Shown one piece after another: positions 1,958-9,497 of a stretch of DNA of 9,497 bases. The first letter of the stretch is position 1; each line of letters starts with the position of its first letter. The translations under genes and the position numbers were made by a program. Under the pieces are notes generated by a model, which saw only the letters and a list, made by a program, of their open reading frames with translations, was not told the origin of the DNA and searched no databases. Origin of the DNA: a virus (taxonomy: Duplodnaviria > Heunggongvirae > Uroviricota > Caudoviricetes); IMG/VR virus record IMGVR_UViG_3300014510_000025; one strand, given 5' to 3'.

Positions 1958-4405
1958 TTAACCGTCATGCATCATGCTGGCACGGGCGCGCGCACGTTTA
2001 TCCCGCTCGTATTTTTCGAGCGCAGCCTGTAACTGGCGGTCAAGCTGTGTCCCCGGCGCATTACCACCCGTCAGGCTGATGTGATATTCGTTTTTACTCT
2101 GGTCCACATAAGAGCGGCTAGCCGGTGCCGTGACCGGCTGATAAGCCTGATAGCCTGCATAAGAGCTGGTCGCCGGAATATAACCACCGCTGCCATACGT
2201 GGCGGCTTGAGTTCTGGCGGCGGTCTGGTCAAGTGTGTCTGACTCTTTGTTGATAACACCGAGTTTTTCCAGTACCCAGTCAATACCGCTGCGCAGTTTG
2301 TTGAACGCATTAAGCGGCAGCATCAGCGCGTCAGCCAGTGCCTGCCCGAACATGACCCCCGTGTCACGGCAACTGTTCAGGGTGTCCTGAGTGGCTTTGA
2401 CCGGGGCAATCAGGTTTTTAAACCACTGCCACGCGGCCTGTAACTTTTCACCCAGCCAGTCAAACAGCGGCTTAAGTGGCGTGAACAGTTCCCCCACCGG
2501 CGCAAATGCCGCTTTCAGCCCTTCAACCACACCGCCAAAGAATGCGCTGACAGGCTCCCAGTATTTACGGATAAGTAACGCTCCGGCGACAATGGCGGCC
2601 ACCACGGCCACTACCGGCCAGCTAATCGCCCCGATGGCCGTCATAACAGCACTGCCAACCGTCGTGAAGATTGCCCCCATTGCGCCTGCTGCCGCGATGA
2701 TGGCATTAATGCCGGTGATAACCGGCCAGGCTACAAGACCAATTGCACCGATGATGCCAATAAGCGCCAGTGCGCCACCGGCAATGATGCCGATGGTTGA
2801 CGCCAGTGATTTGTTTTTCTGGATCCAGCCGTCGAGTTTTAACACATACTTTGTGGCCGTCTGCGTGAGATTACGCAGTGCGCCTTCCTGCTGGTCAAAC
2901 AGGTCTGTCCCCACCGCTTCATAAGCGGACTGAAACTCCTTAAAGTCACCGCCGAGATTGTCCTGCATGATATTTACCAGCTCTGCGGTCTTCCCGTCTG
3001 AGGCTTTAAACGCAGCAGTCAGTTTGTCCAGCTTTCCGGTTGAGGCGGCAGTCATCAGCACGGCGGCGGCTGAGCTGGCTTCCTCCCCGAAAATGGTTTT
3101 CATGTATTCAGCCTGCTGGGCAGTACCGAGCCGGTTTTTCTCAAAACTGGCCTGCATTTCTTTCAGAATGGTAAATATTGGCCGGGTGTTTCCCTTACTA
3201 TCTGAGGTTTTCACACCAAGTTCTTTGAGTGCATCCCATGCTTTTCCCGTCGGTGCCTGCAGGCGGCTTAACACGGCACGACTTCCCGTCCCCGCCATTG
3301 AGCCTGTGATTTTTGCATCATGCAGCGCCCCAACCATTGCGGCGGGTTCTTCAATGCTGACACCGGCATTTTTTGCCACAGGTGCGGCATAGGTCAGCGC
3401 ATCGCTCATGCCGTCAAAATCGGCGGCGGTTTTGTTCATCGTCATGGAGAGAACATCCCCGATATGAGCGACCTTATCGTTTGAAAGTTGAAAGGCGGAT
3501 TTCATCCCCATTAGCAGGGCGGCGTTTTCTTCCATCGTGCGGCGATTCGCCAGCGCCATATTCAGCGTGACCGGCGTTGCCGCCTGAATGGCATCAACAT
3601 CCCCACCGGCTTTCGCAATGATAATCTGCGCACCGGCTGCATCATCCGCCGAGGCGGCGGTATTATCGCCGAGCTGGCGCGCCTGTTTGCGTAGTGCGGT
3701 CATTTCGGCGGAGTCTTTTGCCACTCCGAGCACGGCCTGCAATTCTGAGTTTTTCTGCGCAAACTCATAACCGGGCATCAGCAACTTAACTCCGGCCATC
3801 GTTCCCGCCGCCGCAATCCCCACACCGGCAGCGCCTACTGAGGCCATATTTCCGGCCAGTTCCTTGCCTGCCTGATAACGCTGTTTTACTGCGTTAAGTT
3901 TTGCCTGTTGCGCACTGACACGCGCCAGCGCGTCACGCTGACGGTTAAGCTGTGCGGTGGTTTCACTGATACGGTTTTTCAGCCCCTGCTCATCATGTGC
4001 AAGATTGCGGGTATTAATTCCCACAGCGGCCAGTTCCCGCTGCTGGCGTTTAACGGAATCTGTCAGGCGGTTATATTTCGCCTGTAAGTCCTCCGCCGCA
4101 CGCTTTGCGGATTCCAGCACTTTCGCCTGAGCACGGGTCGGACGTTCGGTGTTTTTAAACTGTGTGGCAAGGGCTTCGGCCTCCTGCCGTGCCTTTTCAA
4201 GTGCATGACCAGTCACGGCGAGCTGTGCACTGGTCTTGCGGAATCCCTCAATACGGGATGCCTGACCGTTCAGCTCGCGCAGTGATTTTTGTGTTTCCCG
4301 GATATCCCCCGACAGCGATTTGCTCGCTGTGCGGATGGATTTAAACGGGCGGGATGCCTGGTCAACAGCCCTGAGCAATACCTGTAATTTTACATTGTTA
4401 CTCAT
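1958..4405 (-). CDS. T: Tail tape measure protein T (P2 gpT-like), 815 aa
   Basis: 815-aa ORF. The N-terminal half is coiled-coil-like (rich in A, Q, R, K, E). A central Gly/Ala-rich hydrophobic stretch (IIAGGALALIGIIGAIGLVAWPVITGINAIIAAAGAMGAIF) is typical of tape measure proteins. Position immediately downstream of E/E' matches P2. Confidence 0.92.
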   Translation of the reverse strand: MSNNVKLQVLLRAVDQASRPFKSIRTASKSLSGDIRETQKSLRELNGQASRIEGFRKTSAQLAVTGHALEKARQEAEALATQFKNTERPTRAQAKVLESAKRAAEDLQAKYNRLTDSVKRQQRELAAVGINTRNLAHDEQGLKNRISETTAQLNRQRDALARVSAQQAKLNAVKQRYQAGKELAGNMASVGAAGVGIAAAGTMAGVKLLMPGYEFAQKNSELQAVLGVAKDSAEMTALRKQARQLGDNTAASADDAAGAQIIIAKAGGDVDAIQAATPVTLNMALANRRTMEENAALLMGMKSAFQLSNDKVAHIGDVLSMTMNKTAADFDGMSDALTYAAPVAKNAGVSIEEPAAMVGALHDAKITGSMAGTGSRAVLSRLQAPTGKAWDALKELGVKTSDSKGNTRPIFTILKEMQASFEKNRLGTAQQAEYMKTIFGEEASSAAAVLMTAASTGKLDKLTAAFKASDGKTAELVNIMQDNLGGDFKEFQSAYEAVGTDLFDQQEGALRNLTQTATKYVLKLDGWIQKNKSLASTIGIIAGGALALIGIIGAIGLVAWPVITGINAIIAAAGAMGAIFTTVGSAVMTAIGAISWPVVAVVAAIVAGALLIRKYWEPVSAFFGGVVEGLKAAFAPVGELFTPLKPLFDWLGEKLQAAWQWFKNLIAPVKATQDTLNSCRDTGVMFGQALADALMLPLNAFNKLRSGIDWVLEKLGVINKESDTLDQTAARTQAATYGSGGYIPATSSYAGYQAYQPVTAPASRSYVDQSKNEYHISLTGGNAPGTQLDRQLQAALEKYERDKRARARASMMHDG

Positions 4406-4825
4406 TCGTGTTTCCGCTTCGCCGGAGCGCCTTTTCGCGCCATGTGATGAGTTCGGTCAGGCTCATGGGATACAGTTCTGATGGCGGCCAGTGAAATATC
4501 ACTGCCACATCTGCCATCAGGTCATCGACCGACAGATTTTTCGGAAACGTTACTGCACCGAGTTCGGCGACAAAAAACCGACCACCTTACCGGCCAGCGC
4601 CACAAGGTCAGGCAGTTCCAGTGCGGCAACTTCCTGCTCGGTCAGCATCGGTGCCGTCATGCGCGGCAACACCTTAATTAGTGCATCAACTTCGGAGTTT
4701 GCGACCGCAGCCAGACTGACACCGCGCAGCGTCCCGGCACTGGGTTTCATCAGCGTGACCTGTTCGATGACCTGCTCACCACGCTTGACCGAATTGTCCA
4801 GGGTAATCACATTTTCTTTGTTCAT
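4398..4825 (-). CDS. E': Tail assembly chaperone E+E' (programmed -1 ribosomal frameshift product of gene E, about 142 aa)
   Basis: Manual translation after a -1 slip at the T-run 4577..4572 continues ...FFVAELGAVTFPKNLSVDDLMADVAVIFHWPPSELYPMSLTELITWREKALRRSGNTNE and stops at TAA 4400..4398, overlapping the T start codon. This is the conserved E/E' arrangement of P2-like phages (analogous to lambda G/GT). Confidence 0.8.
4550..4825 (-). CDS. E: Tail assembly chaperone E (P2 gpE-like), 91 aa
   Basis: 91-aa ORF MNKENVITLDN...GKVVGFLSPNSVQ ending at TAA 4552..4550. It contains the slippery run G GTT TTT TG near its 3' end. Confidence 0.88.
   Translation of the reverse strand: MNKENVITLDNSVKRGEQVIEQVTLMKPSAGTLRGVSLAAVANSEVDALIKVLPRMTAPMLTEQEVAALELPDLVALAGKVVGFLSPNSVQ
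4571..4579 (-). other. Programmed -1 frameshift slippery site (minus-strand GGTTTTTTG)
   Basis: Homopolymeric T6 followed by G, read directly; zero-frame codons are GGT TTT TTG. It lies 19 nt upstream of the E stop, where the -1 frame is open through to 4398. Confidence 0.75.
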
Positions 4826-4849: not shown

Positions 4850-5407
4850 TTAACCGGTCAGCCTGGCTGACCGGATGAAAATCACAGGCCGATATTGCGG
4901 CGGGNNNNNNNNNNCCCCCAGCCGGTCGACGCCGTTCACCTTCTCAATCATGTTGATGGTGTCGATTTCGACCAGCTCCTTACCGTCCATCGTCAGCCGG
5001 AAATAGGTGCAGACCACGGAGATTTTCGACTCAGTGTCTTCTCCCTGTTTACCCTCGCCGGTGTCGATTTCTTTCTGACGTCCACGCATGACCACTTCGA
5101 CGGCCACCGTTTCGCCGGTATCGTCACGCTGGTAAGAGCCTGCAAAACGAATCGGCACAGCATCCACACCGGTTGCGGCGTAAAGCTCCCAGATAACCGA
5201 ATCCGGGAAGCCCCCGAGCGACCACTCCATTGACAGCGCATCGTCATCAAGGCCGAGGTCTACCGGTGCGCTGCCGTTCATCCCCGCACCGCGATAGTTT
5301 TCGAGCTTACGGGTCAGTTTTGGCAGCGTGACGGACTTCGCGACGCCCTGATAGCTGTAGCCGTTCAGAAAGACGTTCATTAACTTGAGTTTGCGCGGCA
5401 TTGCCAT
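4850..5407 (-). CDS. FII: Tail tube protein FII (P2 gpFII-like); contains a 10-N assembly gap, so the 3' end is uncertain
   Basis: ORF begins MAMPRKLKLMNVFLNGYSYQGVAKSVTLPKL..., tail-tube-like, directly downstream of the sheath gene with an AAGGAG Shine-Dalgarno. As given, the frame stays open across the N-run to TAA 4852..4850 (185 aa). If the true gap length is not 10, the alternative frame ends ...RRNIGL at TGA 4884..4882, closer to the about 172 aa I expect for P2 FII. Confidence 0.82.
   Translation of the reverse strand: MAMPRKLKLMNVFLNGYSYQGVAKSVTLPKLTRKLENYRGAGMNGSAPVDLGLDDDALSMEWSLGGFPDSVIWELYAATGVDAVPIRFAGSYQRDDTGETVAVEVVMRGRQKEIDTGEGKQGEDTESKISVVCTYFRLTMDGKELVEIDTINMIEKVNGVDRLGXXXXPPQYRPVIFIRSARLTG
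4906..4915. other. Run of 10 N (assembly gap or masked bases) inside the FII coding sequence
   Basis: Literal nnnnnnnnnn in the sequence; the four X residues in the ORF-track translation come from it. Confidence 0.99.
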
Positions 5408-5419
5408 CGGTCAGGCTCC

Positions 5420-6610
5420 TTAATTGCTGTTAACCGAGGTGACCAGATTTGCCAGGTATTTATCGGTAATACGCTGGCGCAGGGTCAGGTTTTCAAGAGG
5501 AGGCACCGGTGTATAGTCGTAGTCGATATACAGTTTTCCGGCCTTGAGGGTTTCCACATCGTTGGATTCTTCGCTGAACCAGCAGGTCGCATCCACGATA
5601 TAGCCGTTTGTTTTCAGCTCACGGAATTTGGCATTGATGCCGTCAACGATGTCGCGAATCAGCGTTGCGGTGATGGGCTTGTCCACCGCCCACATGTGCG
5701 CCTCAGCCATCGTGTCGGCCAGCACCTGCGCGGTGCGGGTATAGTTTTCAAAGAGGAACAGCGGGTCATCAGAGCAGGTACGGTTACCCCAGAATCGGAA
5801 ACCGTCGCGGCGAATCAGCGTAGTGACGCCTGACTCGTTAAGCAGGTCAGCATCGGTGCCGGACTCCTGCAAATCCCAGAAGACGGATGCGCTGATGCCG
5901 GTAACACCGTTCACCCCGACGTTGGACAGCGTTTTATGCCAGCCCTGCTCCTGGTCGATTTTAGCGCGCAGACCCAGCGCACGGGCGGTGGCATACGCGG
6001 TGGCGGTGGTACTGGTGACCGTATCCCATGCGAGGAAATCCGGCCAGATGACCATCAGCTCACGCTGGCTGAAATTCTGGCGGTAGGCTTTCACCTCGGA
6101 AATGGTCTTACAGCCCCATGCGCTGATATACCCGAAAGCGCGCAGCTTCTGACAGACTGATGCCAGTGCAACAGCCACCTCTTTGGTGTCCAGTCCCGGC
6201 ACACCGAGAATACGCGGTTTAACACCGGTTACCGACTCCGCCGCCAGCAGGGCTTTCAGTCCGGTGTACTGACCGTTTTCGTCGGTGGTGCCGATGATAT
6301 TGGAAACGGTCTGCGCGAGTTTCGTTTCCTCGTCATCACCGGTGCCGTCTTCCACGCGCACGACAACGGTGACCGGTTTTGACTGGTCAGCGATGGCCTG
6401 CAACGATGCCGCCAGCGTGCCTTTTTTACCGGCCTTTGCAATTGCGCTCTGCACATTGGTAATCAGCACAGGTTTATTGAGGGGGAAGGTTTCCGCATCC
6501 GCATCGCTGGCCGTGCAGACCATGCCGACAATGGCCGTGGATACGGTGGAAATGACGCGGGTGCCGTCGTTAATCTCCAGCACCTGCACGCCGTGATGAT
6601 AGTCACTCAT
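5420..6610 (-). CDS. FI: Contractile tail sheath protein FI (P2 gpFI-like), 396 aa
   Basis: The ORF-track entry 5420..6724 carries a 38-aa N-terminal extension. The internal ATG at 6610..6608 gives MSDYHHGVQVLEINDGTRVISTVSTAIVGMVC..., 396 aa, matching the P2 sheath start and length as I remember them. A GGAG Shine-Dalgarno precedes it, and the extension would have to read through a terminator hairpin. Confidence 0.9.
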   Translation of the reverse strand: MSDYHHGVQVLEINDGTRVISTVSTAIVGMVCTASDADAETFPLNKPVLITNVQSAIAKAGKKGTLAASLQAIADQSKPVTVVVRVEDGTGDDEETKLAQTVSNIIGTTDENGQYTGLKALLAAESVTGVKPRILGVPGLDTKEVAVALASVCQKLRAFGYISAWGCKTISEVKAYRQNFSQRELMVIWPDFLAWDTVTSTTATAYATARALGLRAKIDQEQGWHKTLSNVGVNGVTGISASVFWDLQESGTDADLLNESGVTTLIRRDGFRFWGNRTCSDDPLFLFENYTRTAQVLADTMAEAHMWAVDKPITATLIRDIVDGINAKFRELKTNGYIVDATCWFSEESNDVETLKAGKLYIDYDYTPVPPLENLTLRQRITDKYLANLVTSVNSN

Positions 6611-6705
6611 CCGTTTAACTCCGTGGTTAATGGGTGAGTGGTATTTTCTGTTGTGCAGAGCATGAGACGCTATTTGACCTGGCTGGTCAGTGGATGAAAC
6701 AACAG

Positions 6706-6730
6706 ATAAAGAAAAGGCGGACAATCCGCC
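6706..6730 (-). terminator. Candidate rho-independent terminator downstream of the cargo ORF (minus strand: GGCGGA-TTG-TCCGCC followed by TTTTCTTTAT)
   Basis: Perfect 6-bp GC-rich inverted repeat with a 3-nt loop (6730..6716) followed immediately by a T-rich tract (6715..6706) on the minus strand only. It sits between the cargo ORF and FI. Confidence 0.45.
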
Positions 6731-6734
6731 CGCC

Positions 6735-6752
6735 TGTCATGATTTGTACACA
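6735..6752 (-). promoter_or_regulatory. Candidate Ogr-dependent late promoter element upstream of FI (minus strand TGT-N12-ACA dyad: TGTGTACAAATCATGACA)
   Basis: This is the only TGT-N12-ACA match in the 285 bp upstream of FI. Established knowledge: P2 late promoters, including P_F upstream of FI, carry a TGT-N12-ACA element centred near -55. I could not find a convincing -10 at the expected spacing, so this is tentative. Confidence 0.25.
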
Positions 6753-6894
6753 CTCATTTTCCGACTGACAATTTACATAACCCAAAAGTTATCAAATCTG
6801 ACAGTCTGCTTTGAGCAAGAAGCGGACATTTGCCTGTCAGGGTATATGCCGCTCTGCGGTTATTATCCAGAATCAATAATTCATCTGAGTTGGA

Positions 6895-7533
6895 TTACAT
6901 ATAAAACATAGTTACCCCATGAATAACCATTAGCAGATCATCAATTATGTAAATCTTTTGTTTCAGGTTTTTTGGGTGTTGTGACAACAAATGGCTATAG
7001 CGTTTAAGCAAAATATTAGAAAGATTAAACTCATTCATGAAGTGTTCTTCTAATAAGTAACCATCAATATCAACTTTAATATCATTACTACTTTTCATCT
7101 TCTGTAACGTAGATTTTACACACTCCAGCAGGATGCTTTGCTCATGGTAATAGTCCATAAGAAGAGTAACATCCTCTTTATCAAGTTTACTTAATTCACT
7201 GAAGTAGGCTTTAAAAACTTTATCAGTCTGGTTTAATGCAATCTGTAAGCGAGGCCCTCCTAATGATTTGACATTAATGGCAAAAGGCTCGCCAACAAAA
7301 TGCTCCGAATTTTCGTCAAAGCCAATATTTCTCGTTTTATCAAGAAAAGTGAGAGCGCGATGGTTATTAGCGATTTCATATGCAAACATTGTTCTGATAC
7401 TGTCTCTCTCAGCCTCCATGCTTATATCATCACGATGATTCGTATAAAATATATTTCCAATAAAGAGAACCATAGCAAGAATCACTGAACTTGCCTCCCA
7501 ATTAATATTTTTTAATCGTCGCTTAGTAAACAT
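6895..7533 (-). CDS. Hypothetical membrane-anchored protein, 212 aa; AT-rich cargo gene at the position of the P2 Z/fun lysogenic-conversion locus (candidate superinfection-exclusion or anti-phage protein)
   Basis: Clean 639-nt ORF in roughly 30% GC DNA, where stops are frequent by chance. ATG at 7533..7531 is preceded by AAGGTG. The N-terminus MFTKRRLKNINWEASSVILAMVLFIGNIFY is a basic patch plus a hydrophobic segment of about 20 residues (signal anchor); the remainder is hydrophilic with no motif I recognise. It lies between G and FI, where P2 has Z/fun. Function is inferred from context only. Confidence 0.75.
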   Translation of the reverse strand: MFTKRRLKNINWEASSVILAMVLFIGNIFYTNHRDDISMEAERDSIRTMFAYEIANNHRALTFLDKTRNIGFDENSEHFVGEPFAINVKSLGGPRLQIALNQTDKVFKAYFSELSKLDKEDVTLLMDYYHEQSILLECVKSTLQKMKSSNDIKVDIDGYLLEEHFMNEFNLSNILLKRYSHLLSQHPKNLKQKIYIIDDLLMVIHGVTMFYM

Positions 7534-7599
7534 ACCGCACCTTAATTATCAAAAATATTCCTTCAGTGTTATCTGGTTAGCCTAAACCAAGACATTAAA

Positions 7600-7660
7600 G
7601 TCCGCAGGATATCATATACATAAAATGTATTGATTAGAATTTGCACTAATAAAATAATGC
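7600..7660 (-). promoter_or_regulatory. AT-rich putative promoter region for the cargo ORF (possible -10 TATGAT at 7616..7611)
   Basis: 221-bp AT-rich intergenic region between the G stop and the cargo start. Hexamer read from the minus strand; no strong -35. Speculative. Confidence 0.2.
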
Positions 7661-7754
7661 TTTACTAAAATCTACTCCAGACACAGAGCGGCCTGTCAGA
7701 TTAGGCTTTACTCTGTGCCATAGATATGTAAGCTCACACCAGAGCTCATACAAC

Positions 7755-8282
7755 TTATTGCGGCATTTCCGGCCATTCAGGATTTGCAGGATCCACACGA
7801 CTGACCAGAACGCTGTAACGCTCCCATGCATCCAGTCGGCTACGCTCCTCATCTGTTGCCATATTCAGCCTGACAGCGCGCTCCAGCGGCACAATCACGG
7901 ATTCGGCTTCGGAAAGCAAAGTTGCCTTTTGTGATTCTGCCAGTTGCTGCTGTTCGTCTGCCGTATAAATCCGCTTAATCACGGCACCATCCTTAAACAT
8001 CCATTTACCTGAGTCATCAGCACGTCGGTTGGCGGTAATATCAGGAACCTCGACAACGCTAAAACCTTCAGGGTTAAGCGTTGAAGCATCTCTGGTGATG
8101 CCGACAATTATATTATTCTCGTCGTAAACAATCTTTATCGTGTCTTCCTGAAAATTACTTACTTCCTCATACCAGTTTTTTCCGTCTTCAGACCATAACC
8201 AGACAACATCAAAATTTTTTGTCAGTTGATATTGGGCAACAGTTTTGGGATTACCCGCAGTAATATTTTTTAAATGCTGCAT
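7755..8282 (-). CDS. G: Tail fibre assembly protein G (P2 gpG-like, Tfa family), 175 aa
   Basis: 175-aa ORF, the same length as P2 gpG, starting 3 nt after the H stop (TAATTTATG). The translation ends ...[31 protein letters not shown], which I recognise as the C-terminal signature of phage tail-fibre assembly chaperones. Confidence 0.88.
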
Positions 8283-8285
8283 AAA

Positions 8286-9497
8286 TTATACCTGTGCGAC
8301 GTTATACCATGTGCCATTAATGTATTTTTGTATTGGTCTGAATACTGCGGGGTCATCACCATCGACTTCACCGACAATACCAAGCCCTGTAATTACATGG
8401 CCTGATTTTTCATACATCACACCTTTTTGCATAGTCTGAACAACACGTGTGCCCAGGCGAATATCTCGTACATAGCGAGAATCCGATTCAGCTTTGGTAT
8501 ATGCACCAATATCTCCCGCAGAGGGTTTGCGGGTTGTGGTGTAAAACTCTGACCAGTTAGCCTCAAATCCATAACCATCACGTGCTGAACGATAAAAAAT
8601 ACCGCCGTTCTTATGATTCACACGGAACTGTACGGCAGGGCAACTCCCCGCATTCATATTGAAGTGGAGGATTAATGTCGATGCACCGCTGATATCTGCA
8701 TCATAAACACCGCTATTCCAGTTCCAGCCAACAGCTTTATCATTTGCAACCCTGCTTCCTGTTTGCCCTAAAGCAAATGCAGGCTGCTGGTTTTTCGTGT
8801 TGTAGTCTCGTCGCCAGCCGGGGGCATAAGCATCACCATGATTAATATAAGTGAATTGAGCGTTAGTGGTGCCGCCTCCGGTAGAAGTGCTTGGTGTTGT
8901 TACACGGATGGTCATGGCACCTTTATTACCCATAACCTCAATAACGCAACCTGCAAGATGAATAGTTCCACAGCCAGTATCGGTAATAATTTTATTATTG
9001 CCGTATGACCATGAACATTTGCACATCCAGTACGGATGATTAAATGCACCACGGGAATCCAGCCATTCAATAAACTGAGCGGTTGTCCAGTTTCCGGCTT
9101 CAGTGCTCAAAGCGCCGCTATAAGCACGACAGGCACCGATATTTTTCGTGAAGGTATCCTTTCCCGGAATATCCGCACCGTTCTGATCTTTCTGAAGACG
9201 TTTTTCAGCATTGTCATAGGCAGACTTCACTGCTTTTGGTGTTGCGGCCAGCGTTTCAGAATCACTGTTGGCGGCGCTACTGAGCTGAACAAGACCTTTC
9301 CGCGCCGTGGTGGCGTCCTGTGCAGTGTATTTCCCGTTAGCAAGGTCATACGCGGCCTTTACCGCCTTTGGCGTTGCCGCAAGCGTGTCAGAATCGCGGT
9401 TGGTGACGCTACTGAGCTGGACAAGACCTTTTCGCGCTGTGGTGGCGTCCTGTGCGGTATATTTCCCGTTAGCAAGGTCATATGCTGCTTTTACCGC
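8286..9497 (-). CDS. H: Tail fibre protein H (P2 gpH-like), 3' portion only; the 5' end lies beyond the window
   Basis: The frame is open from the window edge: manual translation of 9497 downward gives AVKAAYDLANGKYTAQDATTARKGLVQLSSVTNRDSDTLAATPKAVKAAYDLANGKYTAQDA..., in frame with the ORF-track entry 8286..9230. The start shown at 9230 is internal. The C-terminal region is the presumed receptor-binding domain. Confidence 0.88.
   Translation of the reverse strand, partial: AVKAAYDLANGKYTAQDATTARKGLVQLSSVTNRDSDTLAATPKAVKAAYDLANGKYTAQDATTARKGLVQLSSAANSDSETLAATPKAVKSAYDNAEKRLQKDQNGADIPGKDTFTKNIGACRAYSGALSTEAGNWTTAQFIEWLDSRGAFNHPYWMCKCSWSYGNNKIITDTGCGTIHLAGCVIEVMGNKGAMTIRVTTPSTSTGGGTTNAQFTYINHGDAYAPGWRRDYNTKNQQPAFALGQTGSRVANDKAVGWNWNSGVYDADISGASTLILHFNMNAGSCPAVQFRVNHKNGGIFYRSARDGYGFEANWSEFYTTTRKPSAGDIGAYTKAESDSRYVRDIRLGTRVVQTMQKGVMYEKSGHVITGLGIVGEVDGDDPAVFRPIQKYINGTWYNVAQV
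9234..9497. repeat. Tandem direct repeat, 132-bp unit (44 codons), at least 2 copies, inside the tail-fibre gene
   Basis: The strings ctactgagctg (9277 and 9409) and caaggtcata (9341 and 9473) recur at exactly 132-bp offset with only a few mismatches. The period is a multiple of 3, so the protein repeat KAVKAAYDLANGKYTAQDATTARKGLVQLSS... is preserved. The array may continue beyond the window. Confidence 0.85.

What the first reader, a model, noticed from the sequence alone, without database searches (positions are those of the whole stretch)
6895..7533. AT-rich single-gene cargo at the Z/fun-equivalent slot encodes an unrecognised membrane-anchored protein
Seen in sequence: a 212-aa ORF at roughly 30% GC sits in a late operon that is otherwise roughly 55% GC, exactly between the tail-fibre assembly gene G and the sheath gene FI. 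It has its own AT-rich upstream region and a downstream hairpin terminator. The protein has a basic N-terminus followed by one hydrophobic helix (residues about 14-32) and a hydrophilic domain of about 180 aa with no catalytic motif I can identify. Established knowledge: in P2 this slot holds the Z/fun lysogenic-conversion gene (T5 exclusion), and P2's lysogenic-conversion genes (old, tin, Z/fun) are known to be AT-rich; the slot is variable among P2-like prophages and carries anti-phage cargo. Inference: this is a lysogen-expressed superinfection-exclusion or abortive-infection protein acting at the inner membrane. It may be P2 Fun(Z) itself or an undescribed replacement; I cannot tell which without a search.
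Basis: partly seen in the sequence, partly recalled or inferred. Interest (0 to 1): 0.75.

Follow-up and report, generated by a model that had tools for sequence, protein, structure and literature searches.

The report
Uncharacterised membrane-protein cargo in P2 prophage
A P2-like prophage carries, at its known anti-phage "Z/fun" cargo slot, an AT-rich gene for a small membrane-anchored helical protein. The protein is not P2's Fun(Z), belongs to a tiny uncharacterised family that moves between phages, satellites, plasmids and defence islands, and is a plausible but untested phage-exclusion factor.

Summary
Window 6895-7533 (- strand) is a 212-aa ORF at 33.6% GC, lying between the tail-fibre assembly gene G and the sheath gene FI of a P2-like prophage.

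The family is small: 29 representatives among 1.84 billion proteins, all placed ones in Enterobacterales. It is under purifying selection (dN/dS 0.08-0.23). It recurs as a single-gene cargo in several places:
- both P2 hotspots;
- the primase-att hotspot of P4-like satellites;
- a siphovirus tail module;
- a conjugative element;
- islands next to restriction-modification, SIR2-HerA, PDC-S49 and putAbiC genes.

The AlphaFold2 model shows an N-terminal transmembrane helix running into an up-down helical bundle, with no catalytic fold.

- The 212-aa form is a rare 1-nt-deletion allele of a 197-aa protein.
- The gene runs in the same direction as the late genes.
- The "own terminator" is a conserved backbone hairpin.

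Best guess, untested: an envelope-level phage-exclusion protein. Interest is moderate.

The parts
6827..7681 (-). Cargo insert (855 bp, 33.7% GC) between conserved P2 backbone flanks
   Evidence: Blastn against P2 matches window 7899-7682 and 6826-6600 and nothing in between. GC.
6895..7533 (-). ORF of 212 aa: a frameshift allele of a 197-aa PHROG 3829 / 'lysogenic conversion protein' family member
   Evidence: (E 6.5e-130, residues 1-193). The exact 212-aa sequence is seen on 19 public contigs.
6968..6973 (-). Homopolymer (A6 on the coding strand; A7, or CA6, in relatives). The 1-nt deletion shifts the frame after residue 188. The canonical stop would be at 6941-6943.
   Evidence: Alignment with RM14723 and M21816. 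The allele is in 1 of 50 fetched loci (L027) and in none of 5,426 complete E. coli genomes.
7438..7500 (-). Codons for the transmembrane helix (residues 12-32, INWEASSVILAM..F..N conserved)
   Evidence: Hydropathy; invariant columns N11 W12 E13 A14 S16 V17 A20 M21 F24; AlphaFold2 helix 12-31, or 12-66 continuous with helix 1.
7538..7543 (-). Shine-Dalgarno-like AAGGTG, 4 nt before the ATG. The motif TTTTTGATAATTAAGG(A/T)G is shared with the Pantoea and Enterobacter-plasmid copies.
   Evidence: Direct reading.
7606..7641 (-). Upstream 36-nt patch conserved with the Pantoea copy (83%), containing TATGAT. A candidate promoter region, not validated.
   Evidence: Blastn; alignment; the promoter scan is not above chance.
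7680..7719 (-). Conserved backbone hairpin just after G (9-bp outer stem, no U run); its 3' arm abuts the left cargo junction (7681/7682). The stable fold (-24.8 kcal/mol) was computed for the 71-nt stretch 7730-7660 that contains it.
   Evidence: Also present in P2; fold.
6706..6735 (-). Intrinsic-terminator-like hairpin plus T run (backbone, also in P2), just upstream of the P_F activator site. The first clear terminator downstream of the ORF.
   Evidence: -14.4 kcal/mol.
6832..6840 (-). CTGACAGGC 9-mer near the right cargo junction
   Evidence: exact copies on the - strand at 6832-6840 and 7691-7699. With up to 1 mismatch there are 13 matches against 2.0 expected.
7691..7699 (-). CTGACAGGC 9-mer just outside the left cargo junction, in the loop of the post-G hairpin. 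It forms an inverted repeat with 6795-6813.
   Evidence: I1: 6795-6813 / 7684-7702, 84%. These correspond to the 'inverted repeats' annotated in AJ512683.
7755..8282 (-). Gene G, tail-fibre assembly protein (upstream neighbour)
   Evidence: Pfam Caudo_TAP 7.4e-35.
5420..6610 (-). Gene FI, tail sheath (downstream neighbour; the true start is MSDYHHG)
   Evidence: Pfam Phage_sheath_1, _1C and Gp18_domIII_N; P2 annotation.

Best explanation
Shown: this is a self-contained, horizontally mobile single-gene cargo (a 'moron') inserted at the Z/fun hotspot of a P2-like prophage. It encodes a small protein under purifying selection. The protein has an N-terminal membrane helix that runs into a non-enzymatic up-down helical bundle.

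Inferred mechanism: the positively charged N-terminus stays in the cytoplasm, and the bundle, with its conserved GEPFA loop, faces the periplasm. The protein then acts stoichiometrically, not catalytically, as a superinfection-exclusion factor at the inner membrane. It would bind an incoming phage's ejection or tape-measure machinery, or the inner-membrane component that machinery uses, and so block genome entry.

Expression is probably twofold. Late transcripts from the V-H-G operon could read through, since no canonical terminator lies between G and the ORF. A weak promoter of its own in the AT-rich leader could also contribute.

The copy in this window has its last 9 residues replaced by 24 out-of-frame residues. 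This affects only the predicted disordered tail.
For: Real gene:
- dN/dS is 0.08-0.23 between E. coli, Salmonella, Pantoea and Kosakonia copies.
- Motifs are conserved down to 20-30% identity; R47, N57 and L117 are invariant.

Mobile single-gene cargo:
- The insert is 855 bp relative to P2.
- The same cassette, with its leader and trailer, occurs in a Pantoea island and an Enterobacter plasmid.
- The gene stays at 27-37% GC in every host.

Location and association:
- The slot is a validated defence hotspot (PMC9519451).
- Homologues sit right after the primase of P4-like satellites, which PMC13586616 lists as a minor defence hotspot.
- One sits in the other P2 hotspot, next to PADLOC candidate PDC-S49.
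- Others sit next to a type II restriction-modification pair, near SIR2 + DUF87, and next to a putAbiC protein and an HD protein.
- One is a reverse-oriented moron between tail genes of a siphovirus-type prophage.

Non-enzymatic membrane protein:
- The two AlphaFold2 runs gave best models that agree on the fold (pLDDT 77-78, pTM 0.68-0.70). In the second run all five models scored 75-78; in the first only one of five was good.
- The transmembrane helix is the most conserved segment, which suggests specific helix-helix contacts.

Topology: the N-tails carry 1-8 Lys/Arg with net positive charge, and the C-flank is net neutral to negative.
Against: - There is no experimental evidence for any function.
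- The P2_AC1 lysogen, which has an intact copy, showed no protection against T4, P1, 186, CLB_P2, AL505_P2 or T7. Its lambda and LF82_P8 phenotype is explained by another locus (PMC9122126).
- No promoter is detectable above chance, so expression in lysogens is unproven.
- Topology by charge counting is ambiguous in several homologues.
- The hydrophobic segment of the E. coli protein is borderline for a transmembrane helix (1.56).
- Location-based inference is weak: only 15-32% of unknown P2 cargo proteins score as antiviral by machine-learning predictors (PMC13586616), and the slot also carries non-defence cargo (bioRxiv 10.1101/2024.10.15.618418).
- The structural matches are non-specific.
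Confidence: 0.35

Rival explanations
1. Abortive-infection or membrane-effector protein. On infection, the conserved transmembrane helix (invariant S16xxxA20, N27) oligomerises and the protein permeabilises or depolarises the inner membrane. The helical bundle, which may face the cytoplasm, acts as the sensor of a phage product.
For: The same location and association evidence applies as for exclusion. The transmembrane segment is unusually conserved, with polar Asn/Ser residues. A neighbour in Proteus carries a putAbiC domain. Transmembrane effectors are common in abortive-infection systems (PMC9122126 discussion).
Against: It is a single gene with no recognisable sensor or enzymatic domain and no conserved partner across ten contexts. 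The positive N-tail favours a periplasmic bundle. No toxicity data exist.
Confidence: 0.2
2. Non-antiviral lysogenic-conversion or envelope function. Examples are immunity to an envelope-targeting bacteriocin or T6SS/CDI effector (colicin M immunity is likewise an N-terminally anchored periplasmic protein; from my own knowledge), entry exclusion of conjugative elements, or an envelope-stress or virulence modifier.
For: RefSeq names the family 'lysogenic conversion protein'. That is a name only, with no tested function. One homologue lies inside the tra region of a conjugative element, and another is about 4 kb from an Rhs-WHH toxin/immunity cluster. The hotspot also carries non-defence cargo (bioRxiv 10.1101/2024.10.15.618418).
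Against: There is no consistent association with toxin genes or tra genes. Most non-phage contexts are next to recognised anti-phage genes. There is no homology to any known immunity or exclusion family.
Confidence: 0.2
3. A phage-cycle gene. Being co-directional with the late operons, it would be a late protein serving P2-type morphogenesis or lysis timing.
For: It has the same orientation as G and FI. There is no canonical terminator between G and the ORF, only a hairpin without a U run.
Against: Among complete E. coli genomes that match the slot region, 201 of 716 carry it. It is absent from P2 itself. It occurs in P4-like satellites, plasmids, a conjugative element and chromosomal islands that have no virion genes. 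Its GC is foreign to the operon.
Confidence: 0.05
4. This particular copy is a decaying allele. The frameshift replaces the C-terminal 9 residues with a 24-residue hydrophobic tail, which inactivates or mislocalises the protein, so the window's gene has no function whatever the family does.
For: The window has a 1-nt deletion in a homopolymer. The allele is rare: 0 of 5,426 complete genomes and 1 of 50 loci. The new tail scores 1.51 on hydropathy, almost like a second transmembrane segment.
Against: The exact protein recurs on 19 contigs from several sources, so it persists. Only the tail after residue 188 changes. That tail is predicted disordered (pLDDT below 60) and lies outside the bundle, and its length varies among homologues.
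Confidence: 0.2
5. It is P2 Fun(Z) itself or a diverged Fun(Z).
For: It occupies the same slot and has the same AT-richness.
Against: Fun(Z) is 528 aa and on the opposite strand. BLASTP finds no significant similarity, best E 0.85.
Confidence: 0.01

Closest known systems
P2 Fun(Z) (NP_046777; T5 exclusion, FUdR sensitivity)
   Same: It occupies the same G-FI slot of a P2-type genome. It is a single AT-rich (about 33% GC) non-essential cargo gene flanked by the same conserved inverted-repeat backbone.
   Different: No sequence similarity. Fun(Z) is 528 aa against 197/212 aa, lies on the opposite strand, and is a soluble P-loop-containing protein (GEKGTGKT seen), whereas this protein is membrane-anchored.
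PHROG 3829 / RefSeq 'lysogenic conversion protein' (e.g. WP_264115996, WP_032301962)
   Same: It is a member: E 6.5e-130, and 94-96% identity to P0001. The cassette is in 201 of 5,426 complete E. coli genomes and in 13 phage records (8 distinct phages, including P2_AC1, P24E6b, P24B2, P22H1, D8, 12W and PhiR44_1).
   Different: The window copy has a frameshifted C-terminal tail. The family name does not rest on any experiment I could find.
Prophage moron-encoded inner-membrane superinfection-exclusion proteins (HK97 gp15; T4 Imm/Sp; P22 SieA; lactococcal Sie2009). Their properties are from my own knowledge.
   Same: A small single-gene membrane protein carried as a moron inside or next to tail genes, with no enzymatic domain. 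The HK97 gp15 moron lies directly before the tape-measure gene.
   Different: No homology was demonstrated. HK97 gp15 is only 62 aa. No exclusion phenotype is known for this family.
Validated cargo of the P2 Z/fun hotspot (three PD systems of Vassallo et al. 2022, PMC9519451)
   Same: Same hotspot, with the same logic of inference from location.
   Different: No PADLOC v2 model matches, and that database includes the PD-T4, PD-T7 and PD-lambda systems.
Periplasmic four-helix-bundle ligand-binding domains (Tar, PcaY, PilJ, sensor kinases)
   Different: The matches are generic: designed bundles score higher, and Foldseek E is at least 0.1. There is no second transmembrane helix and no signalling module.

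Membership tests
P2 Fun(Z) | Sequence homology to NP_046777 | tested here: not met
   BLASTP best E 0.85.
P2 Fun(Z) | About 528 aa, transcribed antiparallel to the late operons | tested here: not met
   This ORF is 212/197 aa and on the same strand as G and FI.
P2 Fun(Z) | Located between G and FI | tested here: met
P2 Fun(Z) | Blocks T5 growth / FUdR sensitivity | not testable with these tools
   Needs an experiment. T5 was not in the P2_AC1 lysogen panel (PMC9122126).
PHROG 3829 / 'lysogenic conversion protein' family | Full-length profile match | tested here: met
   E 6.5e-130, residues 1-193 of a 197-position profile; 94-96% identity to P0001.
PHROG 3829 / 'lysogenic conversion protein' family | Canonical C-terminus (...HPK(K/E)PE.K...) and a length of about 197 aa | tested here: not met
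   A 1-nt deletion gives a different 24-residue tail.
Known anti-phage defence systems (PADLOC-DB v2) | Match to any defence-protein model | tested here: not met
   0 families for the query. For 23 family members there were only scattered single hits with E at or above 0.004.
Phage moron (autonomous cargo unit in a late operon) | Present in some and absent from other otherwise collinear genomes; deviant GC | tested here: met
Phage moron (autonomous cargo unit in a late operon) | Own promoter and own terminator | tested here: inconclusive
   The promoter scan is not above chance. The terminator belongs to the backbone. A 36-nt leader patch is conserved with the Pantoea copy.
Inner-membrane superinfection-exclusion proteins | Inner-membrane localisation | tested here: inconclusive
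   There is one predicted transmembrane helix. Orientation is inferred from charge only. No topology predictor or experiment was available.
Inner-membrane superinfection-exclusion proteins | Blocks genome entry of superinfecting phage without killing the cell | not testable with these tools
   Needs plating, DNA-entry and survival assays.
Inner-membrane superinfection-exclusion proteins | Homology to a characterised Sie protein | not tested
   Only the size of HK97 gp15 was checked (62 aa). There was no hit in Pfam, PHROG annotated families or the PDB.

The most novel reading that the evidence does not exclude
The family is a new, stand-alone, non-enzymatic envelope-level phage-exclusion module, made of a transmembrane helix and a periplasmic helical bundle. 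It would be shared by P2-like phages (both hotspots), P4-like satellites, siphovirus prophages, conjugative elements and defence islands of Enterobacterales. It would act by intercepting phage genome-delivery machinery at the inner membrane. That would add a Sie-type mechanism to hotspots so far known mainly for intracellular immune systems. It would also be one of the rare cargo families present in both P2 and P4 elements.
Probability: 0.3. Interest if true: 0.6.

Novelty: new member of a known kind. Interest (0 to 1): 0.4.

Why it matters
The Z/fun slot of P2-like phages is a recognised reservoir of anti-phage genes, but most of its cargo has no assigned function. This cargo is common: the cassette is in 201 of 5,426 complete E. 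coli genomes (3.7%) and in eight distinct sequenced phages that match the P2 late region (Peduovirus or unclassified Escherichia phages), including P2_AC1. It has no detectable relative among known defence, toxin or immunity proteins.

If it excludes phages at the membrane, it would define a new single-gene exclusion family. It would also help predict phage susceptibility of clinical E. coli, which matters for phage therapy. If it does not, it is a well-defined example of non-defence cargo in a 'defence' hotspot. It can be tested directly with existing strains and phages.

Tried and rejected
- **Family and structure searches.** Pfam, NCBIfam and PADLOC on the query gave nothing above noise. 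The same was true for 23 family members, including relatives at 20-30% identity.
- **Solved structures.** A PDB sequence-profile search gave nothing; the best hit had E 0.23.
- **Other slot cargo.** Similarity to Fun(Z) and to P2-EC58 ORF1 was rejected.
- **A possible link between Fun(Z) and the KAP-NTPase neighbour in L045.** Fun(Z) has no Pfam or PADLOC hit and no similarity to that protein, so I dropped the idea.
- **HK97 gp15 as a homologue.** It is 62 aa and serves as an analogue only.
- **Promoters.** Consensus scans in the window and in the Pantoea locus were not above shuffled expectation. The one - strand hit (-10 GATAAT at 7545-7550) would start the transcript inside the ribosome-binding site, so I do not accept it.
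- **RNA families.** Rfam found no RNA family in the window.
- **Literature.** Searches for the RefSeq accessions, PHROG 3829 and peptide strings found nothing, including in the DefensePredictor supplements. Nilsson 2004, Christie & Calendar 2016, Odegrip 2006 and the 2026 H-NS preprint are not held.
- **Locus search.** The search for related loci with the wide alignment failed on genome contigs because no stretch was conserved enough. The closer alignment returned only two species representatives.
Full report
**1. What is in the window**

The window is the late (tail) region of a P2-like prophage, read on the - strand. In order it carries:
- ogr (1-219);
- D (301-1464);
- U (1464-1943);
- the tape-measure gene T (1958-4405);
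- E (4550-4825);
- FII (4850-5407);
- FI sheath (5420-6610);
- the ORF in question (6895-7533);
- G, tail-fibre assembly (7755-8282);
- the 3' part of the tail-fibre gene H (8286-9230).

The gene identities come from Pfam. FII was not in that scan and rests on the second source only: the RefSeq annotation of a locus in E. coli RM14723 that is 99.7% identical over the cargo region. There the prophage lies next to fieF-pfkA.

**2. Checking the observation**

The ORF is real: ATG start, 212 aa. Its GC content is 33.6% (GC3 33%) and its 146-nt leader is 30.1% GC. The D-to-FI block is 55.5% GC and G/H about 45.5%.

Blastn against phage P2 shows backbone homology on both sides, at window 7899-7682 and 6826-6600, with nothing in between. 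The foreign insert is therefore 6827-7681, 855 bp.

The protein has a basic N-terminus, one hydrophobic helix (about 12-32) and a hydrophilic helical remainder.

- **(a) Length.** A comparison with RM14723 and M21816 shows a single-base deletion in an A-run on the coding strand (window 6968-6973). It shifts the frame after residue 188. The other 30 relatives aligned (29 of them full-length) carry the canonical tail, which in the E. coli form ends ...KPETKDLHN; full-length relatives are 195-207 aa, mostly 196-197. The window instead has 24 out-of-frame residues.
  - The allele is not a one-off error. The exact 212-aa protein is on 19 public contigs, and the same A6 run is in one IMG/VR locus, L027.
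  - It is rare. None of 5,426 complete E. coli genomes has it, and 9 fetched loci match a pattern for the in-frame run (A7 or CA6).
- **(b) Terminator.** The hairpin at 6715-6735 plus its T run is genuine (-14.4 kcal/mol). The same element sits in P2 immediately upstream of the annotated P_F activator site. It is part of the conserved backbone and not the cargo's own terminator.
- **(c) Orientation.** The ORF is co-directional with G and FI. P2 fun(Z) is antiparallel.

**3. It is not Fun(Z)**

P2 Fun(Z) is 528 aa, and BLASTP against it gives nothing (best E 0.85). The Z-region ORF1 of P2-EC58, from the GenBank record AJ512683 that annotates the flanking inverted repeats, is also unrelated.

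All three cargo genes have about 33% GC.

**4. What family it belongs to**

The only strong hit is PHROG 3829, of unknown function (E 6.5e-130, residues 1-193). Pfam, NCBIfam and PADLOC return nothing meaningful. RefSeq names some copies 'lysogenic conversion protein'. I found no experiment behind that name.

The family is very small:
- 37 clusters at 90% identity among 5.8 billion proteins;
- 29 representatives at 50% identity among 1.84 billion, of which 17 have E at or below 1e-10.

All members that could be placed are from Enterobacterales: Escherichia, Salmonella, Pantoea, Kosakonia, Pluralibacter, Enterobacter, Dickeya, Pectobacterium and Proteus.

In E. coli the cassette is common. It is in 201 of 5,426 complete genomes. 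A further 515 genomes match only part of the query, typically the conserved flank, and so probably carry other cargo in this slot. It is in 13 phage records, which are 8 distinct phages; all match the P2 late region, and the classified ones are Peduovirus. One is P2_AC1.

Pairwise dN/dS of 0.08-0.23 shows purifying selection. Distant members at 20-30% identity keep the same architecture and a few invariant residues: R47, N57 and L117, with S16, A51, E53, I54 and Y129 nearly invariant.

**5. Structure**

Two AlphaFold2 runs produced best models that agree on the fold. The first used the canonical 197-aa form with 32 sequences. The second used the window allele with a more diverse 29-sequence alignment.
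- Mean pLDDT was 77-78 and pTM 0.68-0.70. In the second run all five models scored 75-78. In the first run only one of five was good (77.1; the others 46-58).
- The membrane helix (from residue 12) continues into a long first helix.
- A conserved but low-confidence loop follows (about 67-91, containing the invariant E82-P83-F84-A85).
- Then come helices at about 92-100, 105-116, 119-148 and 154-185.
- The frameshifted tail has pLDDT below 50.

There is thus no catalytic fold. The most conserved part among close relatives is the transmembrane helix itself: N11 W12 E13 A14 S16 V17 A20 M21 F24 are invariant. This suggests specific helix-helix contacts and not a passive anchor.

Charge counts favour N-in/C-out. 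N-tails carry 1-8 Lys/Arg with net positive charge, and the C-flank is neutral to negative. This remains an inference.

**6. Genomic contexts of relatives**

The gene has no conserved neighbour, so it behaves as a stand-alone unit. The contexts found are:
- the P2 Z/fun slot (this window);
- the other P2 hotspot, after the portal gene and directly behind a KAP-NTPase that matches PADLOC candidate PDC-S49 (L045);
- immediately after the alpha-primase of P4-like satellites in Pantoea ananatis and Kosakonia, a position PMC13586616 lists as a minor P4 defence hotspot;
- an AlpA-type island in Pantoea;
- the cargo end of a lambdoid prophage in Salmonella, next to a type II methylase/endonuclease pair;
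- beside a putAbiC-domain protein and an HD protein in Proteus;
- an island with ArdC and SIR2 + DUF87 in Dickeya;
- inside the tra region of a conjugative element in Salmonella;
- as a reverse-oriented moron between tail genes of a siphovirus-type prophage in Pectobacterium;
- an IncFII-type Enterobacter plasmid, where the gene is full-length if a TTG start is used.

In every host the gene keeps 27-37% GC against flanks of 33-58%. The E. coli cassette shares leader and trailer sequence with the Pantoea and plasmid copies (window 7555 to 6798, plus a 36-nt patch at 7606-7641). The unit that moves is therefore the gene with its short flanks.

**7. Expression signals**

No sigma-70-like site stands above chance (2 found, 4.0 expected). 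The only - strand hit would start the transcript within the ribosome-binding site.

Between G and the ORF there is a stable conserved hairpin at 7680-7719 (-24.8 kcal/mol for the 71-nt stretch 7730-7660 that contains it) but no U run. The first canonical terminator on that strand is the backbone hairpin before P_F.

Read-through from the late V-H-G operon is therefore plausible, and a promoter of its own is unproven. Both points are inferences.

**8. Published knowledge on the slot**

Vassallo et al. [quoted passage not shown] It holds fun in P2 and three of their validated systems. Egorov et al. (bioRxiv 10.1101/2024.10.15.618418) re-identify the Z/fun hotspot in 1,008 P2-like phages and note mixed cargo. 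Moura de Sousa et al. (PMC13586616) describe a defence hotspot within the P2 tail genes and the primase-att hotspot of P4. They also state that P2 and P4 almost never share defence genes.

Rousset et al. (PMC9122126) isolated P2_AC1, whose copy of this gene is intact. The lysogen protected only against lambda and LF82_P8, out of lambda, T4, P1, 186, CLB_P2, LF82_P8, AL505_P2 and T7. The cloned TIR system from the other hotspot reproduced that phenotype. This is a weak negative for the present gene against that panel, which lacked T5.

**9. Interpretation**

Shown:
- it is a mobile single-gene cargo at a known hotspot;
- it encodes a selected, membrane-anchored, non-enzymatic helical protein of an uncharacterised family.

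Inferred: the most likely function is an envelope-level phage-exclusion (Sie-type) factor that blocks genome entry, which I put at about 0.35. The rivals are:
- a membrane abortive-infection effector (0.2);
- a non-antiviral envelope or immunity function (0.2);
- a phage-cycle role (0.05).

Separately, there is about a 0.2 chance that this particular frameshift allele is impaired. Identity with Fun(Z) is refuted.

**10. Novelty and score**

The slot, and the practice of inferring function from location in it, are already published, and the gene family already exists in databases as a hypothetical protein. What is new:
- the family has no link to any known defence, toxin or immunity family;
- it has a membrane-anchor-plus-bundle architecture;
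- it spreads across P2, P4, siphovirus, conjugative-element and island hotspots.

I rate it a new member of a known kind (prophage hotspot cargo, candidate exclusion gene), with interest about 0.4.

Noticed in passing
window 4905-4914: A run of 10 N inside the tail-tube gene FII gives XXXX in the translation. It is an assembly gap or a masked stretch; the FII reading frame continues across it.
   Followed up: partly
window 6832-6840 and 7691-7699 (also 6795-6813 / 7684-7702): An exact 9-mer, CTGACAGGC, lies in direct orientation near both cargo junctions: one copy just inside the right junction, the other in the backbone hairpin 10 nt outside the left junction. CTGWCAG is over-represented in the window (7 found, 0.9 expected). 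These overlap the 'inverted repeats' annotated in the P2-EC58 Z-region record and may mark the recombination sites that swap cargo at this slot.
   Followed up: partly
window 7755-9230: G and the C-terminal part of H are about 45.5% GC, against 55.5% for D-FI. This fits an exchanged tail-fibre/host-range module adjoining the cargo slot, as noted for this hotspot in bioRxiv 10.1101/2024.10.15.618418.
   Followed up: no
L010 5402-6001; L011 6001-6591; L044; L046: Homologues at 61-64% identity sit directly after the alpha-primase of P4-like satellites in Pantoea ananatis and Kosakonia. [quoted passage not shown] At this divergence it is not a recent exchange.
   Followed up: partly
L045 5172-7585: In another P2-like prophage, a 32%-identity homologue lies 44 bp downstream of a KAP-NTPase matching PADLOC candidate PDC-S49 (E 3.9e-88), in the portal-side (old/tin) hotspot. 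This is either a possible two-gene arrangement or just neighbouring cargo.
   Followed up: partly
L012 5893-6486 (Enterobacter cloacae plasmid CP033467): The copy is annotated as a 161-aa protein lacking the membrane helix. The DNA encodes the full N-terminus in frame if a TTG start is used, so the 'truncation' is an annotation artefact.
   Followed up: yes
L005 3215-3808 (phage P2_AC1) and cluster P0002: P2_AC1 and 149 database entries annotate a 181-aa form starting at an internal Met inside the membrane helix. Conservation of residues 10-24 across the family supports the 197-aa start.
   Followed up: partly
window 5420-6724: The mechanical ORF for FI (434 aa, TTG start) overruns the true start (MSDYHHG at 6610) and overlaps the P_F promoter/terminator region. 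This is not a real extension.
   Followed up: yes
L003 17282-17916: In the near-identical prophage of E. coli RM14723, the baseplate gene V is annotated as frameshifted, so that prophage may be defective. The corresponding region lies outside this window.
   Followed up: no
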